The position numbers are program-made. DNA of 23,995 bases, from positions 1-23,995 of the IMG/VR virus record IMGVR_UViG_2534681697_000018, one strand, 5' to 3'. This DNA is from a virus (taxonomy: Duplodnaviria > Heunggongvirae > Uroviricota > Caudoviricetes). Shown piece by piece: positions 9,001 through 23,995 of the stretch; within the stretch, counting starts at the first letter, position 1; every line of letters starts with the position of its first letter.

Positions 9001-12000
9001 ACATTCCGCAACGTGAATTTCTGGGGCTGTCTTCTGCCAGCCAGCAGGAGCTGCAACAGGTTATCAGTCATTTCTGGAAGGAGGTTCTGCCATGACAGAA
9101 CAACGCCCTGAACTGCGCACACCGGGGAGCACCGTTGCGGCCGCAGAGCACATTGTGGCCTGGCTGCAGACGGCCCTTCAGGGGGACACCCCTGACCGGG
9201 CTGACGTGGTGGAGCGTCACATCGGCCAGTTCAACAGCCCGGATGAAGTGAAACGCTATCTGTCCGGTCGCACCGGCTGTATCCGTGTCGCGGCCCTGCG
9301 TGTCCGGGATATCAACCCGCGCGGCGGGCTGTCCGGTCTGGTCACCTGGGTGGCTTACATCATGGCGACGGATTCGTGGGGGTATTCCCGCGACGTGCGC
9401 TGTGAAGTGCTGGCCGGAAAGGTGATCAAACGCCTGCTGTCGTCGGATGCCACAGCGGGCATGGGGGCTGAACGCATGGCTGCTGATGTGCGGGCAGACA
9501 ACATTTACTCCGTCAGCCTCGACGGGCTGGGTGTCACCATGTGGGCGGTGACGTGGGAGCAGGAATTCCGGCTGGATGAAGAGATTGATCTCGCCGCGCT
9601 CCCGGATTTCCTGCGCCTCGGGGCGACACTGCGCAGCGGCGAACACACTGAAATTAACGACGTGATCCATGTACGGGGTGACGATGGAACAGAAACTGAT
9701 TAAGCCAGCGCGGGAAAACGTCCGTGTCCGTAAACCGGATGGCGCACATTTATCCCCGGAAGAGGAACGTCTCTGAGGTGTACTGGCAATAGCGGACACT
9801 ACCATTTGTTCTTTTTTTAAGCAGCCATCTGATGATATTTTTCCCTGAAGGCTGCCGGGGAGATATTCCCCAGACGAGAGTGACGACGCTGACGATTGTA
9901 GAAAATCTCAATGTATTCCCGTATTACTGAGATGGCTTCATCCCGGTTATTAAAACGATAGTGGCTCAGGCTCTCATTTTTCAGCGTTCCCCAGAAGCTT
10001 TCCATCGGAGCGTTGTCGTAACAGTTACCTTTACGCGACATTGATGTTTTCAGACCAAACTGCTCCTGTATGACCCGGTAATCGTATGCGCAGTACTGTG
10101 AACCTCGATCAGAGTGGTGGATTAGCCCGGCAGGTGGGCGCTGGCTCCTGAGCGCCATAAACAGGGCTTTACCTGTCAGCTCTTTTGTCATGCGCTCTCC
10201 CATGGCGTAGCCGACAATTTCGCACGTATAAACATCTTTGATGCCAGCGAGGTACAACCATCCCTCCTGTGTGGCAACATACGTCAGGTCCGCCACCCAG
10301 ACCTGATTTGGTGCTGTAGGAGCGAACGTCTGGTTCAGCAGATTTGGCGCAACTGGCAGATTGTGGTTCGGGTTCGTAGTCGCTCTGAACTTGCGTTTCT
10401 GCTTACAGCGTAGCCTTAGCTCCTTACGAAGACGTGCCAGTCGGTCACGACCAACGATGATGCCATTCTCTGCCAGCTCCGTCTGGAGCCGCCGGGTTCC
10501 ATATGTTTCGCGAGTGCGGATATGTGCCACCTTAATCTCCAGTTTTAGCCGCTCATCACTTTGTTTTCTGTCTGAGGGTTCATGCTGTACCCAGTTGTAA
10601 TAACCGCTCCTGGATACACCAAATACCTGACACATCGCTTCAATGGGAAATTGTTGTCGCCATTGTTCGATTAACGCGTATTTTTCAGCGACTCCTGTGC
10701 AAAATACGCTGTTGCTTTTTTTAATATATCTCGCTCAAGGCGAGCTTCATTTAACGCCTTACGCAGTTGCAGAATTTCAGATTCCAGTTCAGCCACCGTG
10801 CGGGAACCAGGAGTACCGAGCCCTTTTCTGGCGGCGGTAACCCATTGTCCTAAAGTGCCTTCAGGAAGGGATAATCGGGAAGCGCCTTCACTGATCGAAA
10901 GTTGATTTTCAAGAACCGTTCTGACAGCTTCGGCTTTGAACTCTTTAGAGTAACGTTGGGTTTTTCTGCTCATTATTAGCTCCTTCTGATGCCATTCTAT
11001 TTCAGGAAGGAGTGTCCGTTAAACTCAGGCTACCTCACTCAACGTCTGCGCTTACTGGCTGCGCCGTGAAGCCGAGGGAGATGTGGAAATAACCACACTT
11101 CCGAAAAATAACAACAAAACCAGAGGGAAAAAATAATGTCGCTGGGTTCCATTCCTGATGATATCCGCGTCCCGCTTGTCTGGATCGATATCGACAATTC
11201 ACAGGCGCTGGAGGGTGCATCCGCGCAAAGCCGAAAAATTCTGGTCATGGGCCATGCGGTATCGTCCGGCAGCGCAGACGCCCTGTCACTGACCCGTATC
11301 ACCAGTGACAGCCAGGCAGACCAGCTTTATGGCAAAGGGTCGATGCTGGCTGAAATGCTCAAAATGCTGCGTCGTGCCAACACGTACACGGAAACCTGGG
11401 CGATGCCGGTTGCCGCTCCTGAAGGCGCTGCCGCAAAAGCCACGCTGACCGTGCTGGGTACAGCGACCGAAGCCGGAACGGTGGCACTGCTGATTAACGG
11501 TGTGTCCGTTCAGGTGAGCGTGAGCGCCGGGGATACGAAGGAAAACATTGCAAAAGCCATTGCTGATGCGGTGACGAAAAAGCCTGCCACGCAGGTGGCC
11601 GCTGCGGTGAAGGATGATGCCACGGATACCGTGGAGCTGACCGTGAACTGGCACGGCGTCACCGGCAACGGTGCCGACGTTCGCCTGAACTACCACACCG
11701 GTGAAGCCTTCCCGGCAGGTGTGAAGGTGACCGCAACCGCGTTTACCAGCGGCACCGGGACACCGGAAATGGCAGACGCCGTTGCGGCCATCGGCCCGGA
11801 GTGGTTTACCGATATCATCGCCCCGTTCACCGACACGAAAAGCCTGAACACCCTGCGTGATGAACTGCTGAACCGCTGGGGGCCGCTCAAAATGATGGAA
11901 GCGCAGCTGTGGACGGCGTTTTGTGGCACGCACGGGGAAACCGGCACGTTTGGTGAAACCCGCAATGACTGGCTGATTAGCTGCATCGGCACCAACCTGT

Positions 12001-21000: not shown

Positions 21001-23995
21001 GGCATTTGATGGCACCAGAGATATCACCATCAGCAGCACCGATTCTGGTGCAGTACGTGATTTCAGATACACCAGCGAAGTGTTTCACAATCCCGGTGGT
21101 AACGAAATTTCCTGGGTATTCCGCGCGCCTTCAGGGTGTATTTTGTCAGGTATTAACGTTCAGGAAACTGGCAAAAGCTCTGCGGATAACATCGGGGGTG
21201 TGTATTACAAACAAACTCAGATTTATATCAATGGCGGATGGCGCACGGTATCCGGCTAATTAAGGAGAAAATAATGGAACTCAGAAACGTCACGCGTTAT
21301 TACCCGGAAGAAATGCCTTATGGTGAAAACATTCAGTATTTCCGCAGTGAAGACGGACAGGATTTTTATGAATCACTGGATAAATTCACGAAGAAATACA
21401 AATTATGTATTCACCCGGAAACCGGCGTGATTTATTCAATGGCAGAAGACGTGTCCCGTCTTTATCCTGTTGGTTTTACCATTGTGGAAGTGGATGAGCT
21501 GCCGGAGGGTTTTGACATCGAAGCCAGCTGGTATTACCGGGATGGCGAAGTACTGCCAGTTCCTGTTGATTATTCGAAACTGGCAGAAAAGCAACGTCAG
21601 CGCTTGCTGAATGAAGCAAAGGAAATCACTTCCGACTGGAAAACCAAGCTGGAGCTGGGCACCATCAGCGACGATGACAAAGTCCGTCTTACGCAGTGGA
21701 TGGAATATATCAAAGCGGTGAAGGTGCTGGATTTAAGCACTGCTACCGATGAAATCTCCTTTGATGCCATCAACTGGCCGGAGCGTCCCGATGCCGCAGC
21801 TTAAAGGTGTGATTAAAACGCCCACGGGAGAACCGCTGGGCGGCGCAACAATTACACTGACCTCCCTGCACAACCGTGCAGGGATTCTGAAAGGCGTTTT
21901 CAGCCACGTCACCACACAGAGCGGGGAGTATGACTTCCCCGTTCTGCCGGGCGTGTACAGCGTTCGCCTGACACAGAGCGCACAACGCCTTTCAGAAATC
22001 GGTGTCATTCGCGTTTATGAAGATTCAGCGGACGGTTCGCTGAATGATTTTCTGGGCGCAACTGATATTGACCTGTGTCCGGAATCCCTGAAGAAATTCG
22101 AAGAGCTGGCGCAACAGGCGCAGCAGAGTGCCGGGGCCGCAGCCGGAAACGCACAGCAGACGGCGCAGGATGTGGCGGCAGCCGCAGCCGGACAGAGCGC
22201 ACAGGATGCCGCAGGTTATGCCCGCGCAGCAGAACAGGCCAAAAATGACATTGATGCTGCGCTGACCGGCACTCTGAAAATGGCTAACCATCTGTCAGAA
22301 ATCGCAGCAGCAGGCGAAAAGGCACAACAGAAGTCCCGGGATAATCTGAGGCTGAAAAGTGCGGCCACGATGGAAGCACAGAGCGACATTTACGACCGGA
22401 CAAAAGGCCGTCTGGCGATACCCGGCGCATTCGGCTTTGGGTGTGCTTTTCTGCCTGAAGATGTTATCCGTTTTGACACTAAGAGTGATTTCCTGGCCTG
22501 GGTAAGGAATGCGCTGCCAGGTGAATATTCCGTTGCTGGCCCCTACGGCATCATCATACCCGACACACGGTTTGAAGGGGGGCTCAGCATCCGGTGGACT
22601 GATGCACGCCCTGAGACAAGGGAACCGCGGTACAGAGCCAAATCCCTTACTTTTTACGGCATTAACGGCCCCATTTATCACACCCGCTACTGCTACTGGC
22701 CCATATCCAGACTGACTGGGTGAAAATAAATATAGCCACAGAAGATATTATTTACAGAATCGTGGCGAGCTCTGTCCGCAACAGATGGGGAGACCCTGAC
22801 ATTGGCGGGCTGATTATTGCTGCGTACCAGGGAAAAGCTGACGGTGATAAAGACATCAGACTTGTCAGGGGGCGGTCATACAGAGGCTCACGACTGGGAC
22901 CGGTGGGGATTTCAGCGCCCTGTACTCCCACCGGAACGCATATAGTATACCCACAATATTTCATTACGGGATGTTCAGAGCATTCATTACCGGGGTCATA
23001 TTGCGCCCTGTCCGGGGTGCCGGATACATATGTCTCTGGCGCAATGCCCGGGCTTTTTATTCGCACATCGTGAGGAATGCACTGTGGAAATTAAAAAAAT
23101 CATTAATCCCCGTTATACCGAAAGTGGCGCAGTAGACTGTGACGTTTTTTTTGACGACAGGGACCAGGCAGTCCCCTACACAGCCACCGCTGATGATGTC
23201 GCTTCGACGGGTCAGCAAATCTGGCAGGAACTGCAAAGCGGCAAATGGGGTGAGATAGCCCCATTCACTGTGACACCAGAAATGCTGGAAGCGGCCAGAG
23301 AGGCCAGACGTCAGGGAATTGAAGCATGGCGCACAGAACAGGAGGCGAAGCCGTTCACGTTTGAATGGAACGGTCGTATCTGGAATGCTGGCCCCAACTC
23401 ACTGGGCCGCCTTTATCCGGTGGTAATGGCTGCGAAATCGTAAGCGCCCCGAGAAGTACGTAGCGTAAGGATTATTTTACAGACGAGAAGTTCCAGGGCA
23501 GCAGTTCATGCACTTGGTTCGACGGCCAGTCATTGAGCTTCTCGATCACTTCGCGCAACCAGTCCTCCGGCTCCACTTCGTTCTGTTTGCAGGTGACCAG
23601 CAGACTGTAGATGATCGCCGCACTTTCTCCTCCCTTGTCTGAGCCGAAAAAGAGATAATTTTTTCTTCCAACCGCCACCGATCGTAACGCGTTTTCACCG
23701 ATGTTGTTGTCTATTTCCACCCAGCCGTCACGACAGAACTCGTTCAGCGCATTCCAGTGATTCAGGATATAGTCGAACGCCTTCGCCATCTCCGCATGTT
23801 TCGACAGCGTTTCCCTCTGCAACTGTATCCAGTCGTACAACGACTGCATCAACTGGACGCTTCTGGCTTTTCTGACTGCAAGCCGTTCCTCTGCCGGACT
23901 GCCACGTATCTCCGCTTCTATGTCGTATAACTCTGCTATCCGTCTGAGCGCTTCCTGAGTCATTTCTGTCGGACGGCGCACATCCTCGTCATGGA

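What the first reader, a model, noticed from the sequence alone, without database searches (positions are those of the whole stretch)
11136..23439. Complete contractile-tail gene set without head, lysis or regulatory genes: tailocin-like cassette or decaying prophage
The phage segment from 7810 to 23439 carries a full Mu/e14-like tail morphogenesis set: sheath, tube, chaperone, tape measure, DNA circulation protein, baseplate hub, spike, gp46, J-like, gp48, fibre and fibre chaperone, preceded by three head-tail joining genes. The only head-proximal gene is a 3' stub, and no terminase, portal, capsid, lysis, repressor, integrase or transposase genes of the phage are present. This is the gene content of an R-type tailocin, but without an obvious regulatory or lysis cassette, so a decaying prophage is equally possible. 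This is the nearest thing to a discrete system in the window.
Basis: partly seen in the sequence, partly recalled or inferred. Interest (0 to 1): 0.55.

Follow-up and report, generated by a model that had tools for sequence, protein, structure and literature searches.

The report
IS-truncated Mu-like prophage tail remnant
This is the tail-gene half of a Mu-like prophage in Shigella boydii, left behind after insertion sequences removed the rest of the phage; it is an ordinary decaying prophage remnant rather than a dedicated tail-shaped bacteriocin system.

Summary
Window 7810-23439 carries a co-linear Mu-type contractile-tail gene set, with no head, lysis, regulatory or transposition genes of the phage. 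The window is the whole contig AERN01000091.1 of Shigella boydii ATCC 9905.

The segment is 94-99% identical to the tail half of complete Mu-like prophages in E. coli. Those carry transposase A/B, Gam, a Mor-family activator, endolysin, terminase, portal, protease, capsid and com/mom.

Here the phage DNA begins abruptly inside a 103-codon gene, at the end of an ISSfl3 (IS66-family) copy. It ends inside a DUF4376 gene at a second, inverted ISSfl3 copy, where the contig also stops. An IS600 with a 3-bp duplication splits the small gene just upstream of the sheath gene. The second, side-fibre-like fibre gene has a 4-bp frameshift.

The twelve core genes, sheath to fibre chaperone, are full length. 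However, the 25-nt element that precedes both late operons in intact relatives is absent, and promoter-like sites are no more frequent than chance.

The same ISSfl3/phage junction occurs in three complete genomes (one named S. boydii in a paper) and one further draft assembly. One of the three also has real deletions in tail genes.

Verdict: IS-truncated defective prophage, a known kind. An autonomous tailocin is not supported. Expression driven in trans by a helper phage is not excluded.

The parts
4374..5693 (+). IS4-family (DDE_Tnp_1) insertion sequence. It joins the chromosomal aqpZ side to the partial ISSfl3.
   Evidence: Pfam PF01609. The same 1320-bp element lies inside ISSfl3 in the opposite orientation in CP026875.1, which implies an IS-mediated inversion in this strain.
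5679..7809 (+). Partial ISSfl3 (IS66 family): tnpB 5809-6156 and tnpC 6176-7777. Its end forms the left edge of the phage DNA.
   Evidence: Pfam IS66 domains. 99.7-99.9% identical to annotated ISSfl3 copies. Junction sequence read.
7810..8116 (+). 3' stub of a 103-codon phage gene that lies between the capsid gene and gp36 in intact relatives.
   Evidence: Homology to intact prophages starts at 7810. Matches PHROG 10420 positions 43-115 of 147. The intact gene is 103 aa in L001 and L010.
8116..8553 (+). Mu gp36-like head-tail joining protein.
   Evidence: PF07030. 100% identical at protein level to the copies in intact prophages.
8553..9095 (+). Tail-completion / virion morphogenesis protein (Mu G-like).
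   Evidence: PF05069; PHROG 26.
9092..9703 (+). 203-aa conserved virion-module protein of unknown exact role.
   Evidence: PHROG 490. Full length compared with intact relatives.
9684..11136 (+). DUF2635 gene (61 codons in relatives), split after codon 30 by IS600.
   Evidence: Removing the IS and one CTC copy restores the 61-aa ORF. The intact gene is annotated in L001 and L023.
9774..11037 (-). IS600 (IS3 family), orfA 10973-10671 and orfB 10635-9817, with a 3-bp CTC target duplication.
   Evidence: The same insertion is present in CP026875.1.
11136..12611 (+). Tail sheath.
   Evidence: PF04984, PF17482, PF17481. 491 aa, as in intact relatives.
12621..12977 (+). Tail tube.
   Evidence: PF10618.
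12979..13474 (+). Tail assembly chaperone (Gp41_Mu, to 13374) plus an overlapping frameshift-extension ORF that stays open to 13474.
   Evidence: PF23746. The extension frame is open and conserved in all relatives aligned.
13461..15305 (+). Tape measure protein (614 aa), with a mosaic central part.
   Evidence: PHROG 973. 61-97% aa identity to relatives; only in-frame length differences.
15305..16579 (+). DNA circularisation protein (Mu N / gp43-like).
   Evidence: PF07157; PHROG 184.
16579..17649 (+). Baseplate hub (Mu P / gp44-like).
   Evidence: PF21683, PF22255, PF21929.
17640..18176 (+). Baseplate spike (Mu gp45-like).
   Evidence: PF06890.
18173..18625 (+). gp46 baseplate protein.
   Evidence: PF07409.
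18615..19691 (+). Baseplate J / gp47-like wedge protein.
   Evidence: PF04865.
19676..20260 (+). gp48-like baseplate protein.
   Evidence: PF10076.
20264..21259 (+). Main tail fibre (331 aa). Its C-terminal allele differs from VL40.
   Evidence: PHROG 1833, full length 1-322/322. Only 50% identical to the VL40 fibre.
21274..21804 (+). Tail fibre assembly protein (176 aa, preceded by AAGGAG).
   Evidence: PF02413; PHROG 136. The exact protein is on record in 8 contigs.
21791..23073 (+). Second fibre gene (PF08400 N-terminal domain), a pseudogene. A 4-bp loss, (GACT)3 to (GACT)2 near 22709, splits it into 310 and 117 codons. It also has a 120-bp in-frame deletion relative to VL40.
   Evidence: The frameshift is shared with the independently sequenced CP026875.1.
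23030..23439 (+). DUF4376 gene (about 208 codons in relatives), truncated by ISSfl3.
   Evidence: PHROG 1141 positions 2-122 of 194.
23440..23995 (-). Second ISSfl3 copy, inverted relative to the first and partial because the contig ends inside it.
   Evidence: Pfam IS66 domains. 99.6-99.8% identical to the left copy and to ISSfl3 elsewhere. Contig length equals window length.

Best explanation
The segment is the late-operon distal half of a transposable Mu-like prophage, reduced to a defective remnant by insertion sequences in a Shigella boydii lineage.

Shown:
- An ISSfl3 copy marks the point where everything upstream was lost: c repressor, transposase A/B, Gam, Mor-family activator, endolysin and other lysis genes, terminase, portal, protease and capsid.
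- IS600 later inserted into the small gene just ahead of the sheath gene.
- A slipped-repeat 4-bp deletion inactivated the accessory fibre gene.
- In this strain, a second ISSfl3 cut the last gene, and an IS4-family element moved the whole piece next to aqpZ.

Inferred:
- The twelve core tail genes remain intact because the truncation is recent. Remnant copies differ from each other by 0-1%.
- The genes are probably silent. In intact relatives they lie in one tightly packed operon that starts upstream of the protease gene, behind a conserved 25-nt element. That element and the Mor-family activator gene are both gone.
- Read-through from ISSfl3 tnpC would run into the antisense IS600.
- With no lysis genes, any tails made could not be released by this locus alone.
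- Its most likely biological role is as recombination stock for incoming or co-resident Mu-like phages. The mosaic tape-measure and fibre alleles point that way.
For: - Identity to complete prophages: 94-99% over 7810-23439. VL40 and FDAARGOS_943 carry full Mu-like gene sets at different chromosomal sites.
- Boundaries cut genes at IS ends.
- IS600 has a CTC duplication inside DUF2635.
- The second fibre frameshift is shared with CP026875.1.
- The same ISSfl3/stub junction is in CP026836.1, CP026824.1 and CP026875.1. There, type VI secretion genes lie to the left, and mom followed by type VI secretion genes lies to the right. So the head half is absent from the locus in complete genomes.
- CP026836.1 has a 153-bp sheath deletion and further deletions in the hub and gp46 genes.
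- The 25-nt element upstream of both late operons occurs exactly twice in each intact relative and not at all in the window.
- Promoter-like sites: 8 found against 8.9 expected.
- pN/pS is 0.11-0.16 against intact prophages. Among remnant copies it is higher on very few changes: 0 synonymous and 2 non-synonymous against CP026875.1, and about 0.4-0.56 against CP026836.1.
- Source organism.
Against: - All twelve core tail genes, and the chaperone frameshift ORF, are full length with no lesion. That is also what a selected module would look like.
- Expression was not measured, and internal activator-dependent promoters cannot be recognised by sequence here.
- Most single-base frameshifts seen in sister genomes sit in homopolymers and are probably long-read errors. 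Evidence for decay elsewhere in the lineage therefore rests mainly on one genome's larger deletions.
- The rest of the ATCC 9905 draft genome could not be inspected for a helper prophage.
Confidence: 0.85

Rival explanations
1. Helper-dependent tail module. The remnant is silent on its own. When a co-resident complete Mu-like prophage of the same family is induced, its Mor/C-family activator turns on internal late promoters in the remnant. The helper's lysis genes then release the products. The outcome would be free tails or helper virions carrying the remnant's alternative fibre.
For: - The core tail genes and main fibre plus chaperone are intact.
- At least one genome with the same truncated junction (CP026836.1) also carries a second, near-complete copy of the phage with Mor, endolysin, terminase, portal and capsid genes (loci L011 and L012).
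- The remnant's fibre allele differs from that of other family members.
- From my own knowledge, not tested here: phage Mu has a separate activator-dependent late promoter ahead of its baseplate gene P.
Against: - No copy of the element found upstream of the two late operons of intact relatives lies in the tail region, in either the window or the relatives.
- Genes from protease to DUF4376 are packed without intergenic gaps in relatives, which suggests one operon.
- Only one place with this gp36 protein was listed for the closest complete genome, CP026875.1.
- Helper presence in ATCC 9905 is unknown.
Confidence: 0.08
2. Domesticated autonomous R-type tailocin. The tail module was retained by selection as a bacteriocin, and host regulators and host or unrecognised lysis functions have replaced the phage ones.
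For: - Gene content matches the structural part of an R-type tailocin.
- Mu-type tails have been co-opted as tailocins in Pseudomonas (PMC4542187).
- The truncated form is shared by several genomes.
Against: - There is no regulator and no holin, endolysin or spanin in or next to the module, in this window or in the complete sister genomes.
- The edges are IS-cut pseudogenes.
- An IS separates the sheath operon from any upstream promoter.
- The flanking context differs between strains because of IS rearrangements.
- A sister copy has an in-frame 51-codon sheath deletion and hub and gp46 deletions.
- The few substitutions among remnant copies are mostly non-synonymous.
Confidence: 0.03
3. Assembly artefact. 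The juxtaposition of chromosomal genes, IS elements and half a prophage comes from mis-joining repeats in a draft assembly.
For: - The window is a whole draft contig whose right end lies in a repeat; the left end probably does too, though that was not checked.
- The aqpZ/IS4-family/ISSfl3 join on the left is not seen in the other genomes examined.
Against: - The ISSfl3/stub junction, the IS600 insertion and the fibre frameshift are all reproduced in the independently sequenced complete genome CP026875.1, at 99.9% identity over 5661-23439.
- The junction is also present in CP026836.1 and CP026824.1.
Confidence: 0.02

Closest known systems
Complete Mu-like prophages of E. coli of the same family (for example in strain VL40, NZ_CM177011.1, and FDAARGOS_943, NZ_CP065615.1)
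   Same: Gene order and sequence from the 103-codon gene to DUF4376 match. DNA identity is 94-99%, and most tail proteins are 98-100% identical.
   Different: Those prophages are about 33-36 kb. They have transposase A/B, Gam, a Mor-family activator, GH108 endolysin, terminase, portal, protease, capsid and com/mom. The window keeps only the tail half, with an IS600 inside it and pseudogenes at both edges. The tape-measure centre and the fibre/chaperone alleles also differ.
Bacteriophage Mu (tail module L, M, Y, tape measure, N, P, Q, V, W, R, S, U)
   Same: Same gene order and Mu-named Pfam families: Gp36, Gp41_Mu, GpP, Gp45, GP46, Gp48 and DNA_circ_N.
   Different: The relationship is distant in sequence. 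The closest isolated phages by sheath protein are Klebsiella phage Kp4866-3 (74%) and Vibrio phage martha 12B12 (55%); all other phage records, 269 of 270, scored below 60%. No invertible G segment or gin gene is seen; instead there are two fibre/chaperone pairs on the same strand.
R-type syringacin of Pseudomonas syringae B728a, a tailocin derived from a Mu-like tail (PMC4542187)
   Same: A contractile Mu-type tail gene set without capsid genes.
   Different: The syringacin locus sits at a conserved site (trpE-trpG). It keeps a RecA-responsive regulator that is required for activity, and lysis-related genes. Tail particles and killing have been shown for it. None of these features is present or shown here.
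IS-eroded cryptic prophages of Shigella and E. coli ('grounded' prophages; reviewed in PMC6379469, listed and not read here)
   Same: A prophage cut down by insertion sequences and small deletions, fixed in a lineage and rearranged by recombination between IS copies.
   Different: Nothing essential. This instance is notable only because its core tail genes are still intact.

Membership tests
R-type tailocin (contractile phage-tail-like bacteriocin) | Complete contractile tail and baseplate gene set with fibre and chaperone | tested here: met
   Twelve core genes are full length. An upstream small gene is IS-disrupted and an accessory fibre is frameshifted.
R-type tailocin (contractile phage-tail-like bacteriocin) | Absence of capsid, packaging, replication and integration genes | tested here: met
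   None is in the window or at the same locus in the complete sister genomes. The absence results from an IS-marked truncation inside a gene.
R-type tailocin (contractile phage-tail-like bacteriocin) | Own regulatory genes or promoter that couple production to a signal (for example a RecA-responsive repressor, as in the R-syringacin locus and the R-pyocin genes it cites; PMC4542187) | tested here: not met
   No regulator gene is present. The late-operon upstream element of intact relatives is absent. Promoter-like sites are at chance level.
R-type tailocin (contractile phage-tail-like bacteriocin) | Lysis cassette for release (holin, endolysin, spanin) | tested here: not met
   None is in the window or in the 10-kb flanks of sister genomes. 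The relatives' GH108 endolysin lies in the deleted half.
R-type tailocin (contractile phage-tail-like bacteriocin) | Conserved chromosomal locus kept under purifying selection across strains | tested here: inconclusive
   The junction is shared by at least five assemblies, but the flanks are rearranged, one copy has tail-gene deletions, and there are too few substitutions for a firm dN/dS. Single-base frameshifts in sister genomes are probably sequencing errors.
R-type tailocin (contractile phage-tail-like bacteriocin) | Production of tail particles with killing activity | not testable with these tools
   Needs induction, electron microscopy and overlay assays.
Intact transposable Mu-like prophage | Transposase A/B, repressor, Mor/C activators, lysis, head and tail modules between two phage ends | tested here: not met
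   Only the segment from the post-capsid gene to DUF4376 is present. It was compared with L001 and L023.
Defective (cryptic) prophage remnant | Homology to part of a functional prophage, with boundaries that interrupt genes and with inactivating lesions | tested here: met
   No direct comparison with e14 was run. The only link seen is the PF08400 'prophage tail fibre N-terminal' domain of the second fibre. All structural genes are Mu-type.

The most novel reading that the evidence does not exclude
The intact tail module is a helper-dependent weapon or host-range cassette. Induction of a co-resident Mu-like prophage would switch it on in trans and lyse the cell. That would release headless contractile tails, or helper virions carrying the remnant's distinct fibre. 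If so, IS-truncated Mu remnants in Shigella would act as conditional tailocins.
Probability: 0.06. Interest if true: 0.5.

Novelty: already known. Interest (0 to 1): 0.1.

Why it matters
It matters little beyond annotation. The case shows how insertion sequences in Shigella can reduce a Mu-like prophage to a gene set that looks like a tailocin on gene content alone. It also shows that regulators, lysis genes and natural module boundaries need checking before such a call is made. If the helper-dependent reading were true, it would be an example of a tail module on its way to domestication in an enteric pathogen.

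Tried and rejected
- Exact-protein look-ups for the truncated DUF4376 product and for the long version of the fibre-chaperone ORF found nothing. Using the start codon behind the AAGGAG site worked.
- A scan of species-representative genomes for the ISSfl3/phage junction found nothing. I expected this, because I believe, from memory, that Shigella is folded into E. coli in that collection.
- Searching papers for the WGS prefix AERN00000000 found nothing. 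The assembly accession gave the strain name.
- At first I took the many frameshifts in CP026824.1 and CP026875.1 as evidence of decay in the lineage. I then found that the CP026875.1 ones are single-base losses in C5, G5 and C6 runs, typical of long-read errors, and downgraded that evidence.
- A composite transposon (two inverted ISSfl3 copies carrying the tail module) was considered and rejected. The right copy is absent from the sister genomes, and the left copy is itself interrupted.
- An extracellular contractile injection system or a type VI secretion relation was considered because sister genomes have type VI genes on both sides. It was rejected because most of the proteins are 98-100% identical to those of complete prophages, and the type VI genes are simply the insertion site.
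- The E. coli ST131 'tailocin' paper describes a P2-like prophage and is not related.
- I did not run structure prediction or the large protein-database searches, because sequence-level assignments were unambiguous.

Full report
**What the window is.** An exact-protein look-up shows that the window is the complete 23,995-bp contig AERN01000091.1 of assembly GCA_000193915.2. A published strain table lists that assembly as Shigella boydii ATCC 9905. The first 4.4 kb are chromosomal: a macA fragment, ybjX, ybjD and aqpZ, 99% identical to E. coli. An IS4-family element follows at 4374-5693, then a partial ISSfl3 (IS66 family) at 5679-7809. Phage-related DNA runs from 7810 to 23439. The last 556 bp are a second ISSfl3 copy in inverted orientation, and the contig ends inside it. 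ARAGORN finds no tRNA gene.

**Checking the observation.**
- Pfam assigns sheath, tube, Gp41_Mu chaperone, DNA_circ_N, GpP hub, Gp45 spike, GP46, Baseplate_J and Gp48. It also assigns the Caudo_TAP fibre chaperone and, upstream, Gp36 and Phage_tail_S.
- PHROGs adds the tape measure, the 331-aa fibre (full-length match) and the 203-aa upstream protein. It also shows that the 74-codon ORF at 7892-8116 covers only positions 43-115 of a 147-position family, so it is a 3' stub.
- The frameshift-extension ORF that overlaps the chaperone's 3' end is open and conserved.
- No head, packaging, lysis, regulatory or transposition gene of the phage is present.

**What the intact element looks like.** The segment is 94-99% identical to DNA found in 54 of 5,426 complete E. 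coli genomes. In strains VL40 and FDAARGOS_943 the matching region is the right half of a complete Mu-like prophage. Its gene order is:
- transposase, AAA ATPase, Gam, gp16-family protein and a Mor-family activator;
- GH108 endolysin and small lysis-region genes;
- terminase, portal (DUF935), head morphogenesis protein, protease and gpT capsid;
- a 103-aa protein, gp36, the tail-completion protein, the 203-aa protein and DUF2635;
- the tail genes from sheath to gp48;
- fibre and chaperone, then a second fibre and DUF4376, then com and mom.

The two prophages sit at different chromosomal sites, as expected for transposable phages. No isolated phage in the phage collection is close at DNA level. 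The best sheath match is Klebsiella phage Kp4866-3 at 74% amino-acid identity, then Vibrio phage martha 12B12 at 55%.

**Lesions in the window copy.** Alignment to VL40 gives five co-linear blocks.
1. Homology starts at 7810, inside the 103-codon gene, directly after the terminal sequence of ISSfl3.
2. IS600 (1,264 bp, minus strand) lies at 9774-11037 and is flanked by a CTC duplication. Removing it restores the 61-codon DUF2635 gene, which ends where the sheath gene starts.
3. The second fibre gene has a 120-bp in-frame deletion and a 4-bp loss in a GACT repeat near 22709. The 4-bp loss shifts the frame. Both halves match consecutive parts of one PHROG, and the lesion is shared with an independently sequenced genome.
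4. DUF4376 is cut at 23439 by the inverted ISSfl3.

By contrast, sheath through fibre chaperone have the same lengths as in intact prophages. They show no indels other than an in-frame 12-nt difference in the tape measure and a divergent fibre/chaperone allele.

**The lineage.** Three complete genomes carry the same ISSfl3/stub junction: CP026836.1 (named S. boydii), CP026824.1 and CP026875.1. One further draft assembly (GCA_003572355.1) encodes the exact stub protein.
- CP026875.1 is 99.9% identical to the window over 5661-23439 and has the same IS600 insertion.
- In CP026836.1 and CP026875.1, the DNA left of ISSfl3 is type VI secretion (VgrG and neighbours). The DNA to the right continues through DUF4376 and mom into IcmF, ImpA and PAAR genes. 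In CP026824.1 the DNA left of ISSfl3 is different chromosomal genes (relA, mazEF, pyrG, eno), and its right side was not fetched.
- So the head, lysis and early half is absent from this locus in closed genomes and is not merely outside the window. The second ISSfl3 at 23439 is specific to ATCC 9905.
- The IS4-family element lies inside ISSfl3 in the opposite orientation in CP026875.1. This indicates an IS-mediated inversion that placed the remnant next to aqpZ in ATCC 9905.

**Is the module maintained or decaying?**
- Against intact prophages, pN/pS is 0.11-0.16, which reflects past selection on the phage.
- Among remnant copies there are few changes. Against CP026875.1 there are 0 synonymous and 2 non-synonymous changes. 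Against CP026836.1 the ratio is about 0.4-0.56. This is compatible with relaxed constraint but underpowered.
- CP026836.1 has a 153-bp in-frame sheath deletion and deletions in the hub and gp46 genes.
- The numerous single-base frameshifts in the CP0268xx genomes should not be trusted. The three in CP026875.1 fall in C5, G5 and C6 runs.

**Could it be expressed and released?**
- In both intact relatives, a 25-nt hairpin-containing element (GAAGCCGGTAAATCCGGCTTTTTTT) occurs exactly twice. One copy lies between the Mor-family gene and the endolysin gene. The other lies in the 215-bp gap before the protease gene.
- From the protease gene to DUF4376 the genes are contiguous or overlapping, apart from one about 70-bp gap after the capsid gene. 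The tail genes therefore appear to belong to one long late operon.
- The window has no copy of the element, even with three mismatches, and it lacks the activator gene.
- Sigma-70-like sites are no more frequent than in shuffled sequence: 8 against 8.9. The only plus-strand site near the sheath gene overlaps its start codon.
- Transcription reading out of ISSfl3 tnpC would meet the antisense IS600 before the sheath gene.
- No lysis gene is available. That the hairpin element is a promoter or activator site is my inference, not a demonstrated fact.

**Comparison with known systems.** Mu-type tails have been domesticated as tailocins in Pseudomonas. The R-syringacin locus lies at a conserved site and needs a RecA-responsive regulator. 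It has lysis-related genes, and it produces particles that kill (PMC4542187). This locus shares only the structural gene content. It fails the regulator and lysis criteria, and its borders are IS-cut pseudogenes. It therefore fits the well-known class of IS-eroded cryptic prophages of Shigella.

**What remains open.** A helper-dependent role is still possible, because CP026836.1 carries both the remnant and a near-complete second copy of the phage. I put that at under 10%. The rest of the ATCC 9905 genome could not be inspected.

**Verdict.** The finding is ordinary and of low interest.

Noticed in passing
L001:7429-7453 and L001:14981-15005; L023:4092-4116 and L023:11804-11828 (intact relatives, not in the window): An identical 25-nt element with a GCCGG-TAAAT-CCGGC hairpin and a T7 run occurs exactly twice per intact prophage: upstream of the endolysin gene and upstream of the protease gene. 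It could be a terminator, or the binding site of the Mor-family late activator. Its function is unknown.
   Followed up: partly
window 3563-4141 (aqpZ), deletion point near 3615-3624: aqpZ lacks about 113 bp relative to E. coli, at a 10-bp overlap between the two alignment blocks. This leaves a 5'-truncated ORF whose Pfam MIP match starts at profile position 64. It is probably a pseudogene.
   Followed up: partly
window 1-105: Homology to macA and the E. coli chromosome starts only at about 106.
   Followed up: no
window 4374-5693 versus L019:6252-7570: The same IS4-family element lies inside ISSfl3 in opposite orientations in ATCC 9905 and CP026875.1, and the left flanks differ (aqpZ versus type VI secretion genes). 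This implies an inversion between IS copies in one of the strains.
   Followed up: partly
window 22700-22715: The frameshift in the second fibre gene is the loss of one unit of a (GACT)3 repeat. The reading frame is intact in VL40, which has three units. Whether the repeat number varies among strains was not surveyed.
   Followed up: no
window 13770-14415 (centre of the tape-measure gene): The central part of the tape measure is mosaic. Amino-acid identity to relatives ranges from 61% to 97%, while flanking genes are 98-100% identical. This suggests recombination among family members.
   Followed up: no
L011 and L012 (both from CP026836.1): This genome carries both the truncated remnant and a near-complete second copy of the phage. 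The same hub and gp46 lesions appear in both copies, which suggests gene conversion or duplication between copies.
   Followed up: no
L019/L003 (CP026875.1) versus window positions 6746, 9378 and 18904: All three single-base deletions that distinguish CP026875.1 from the window fall in C5, G5 or C6 homopolymers. They are probably long-read assembly errors, so apparent frameshifts in the CP0268xx Shigella genomes need caution.
   Followed up: yes
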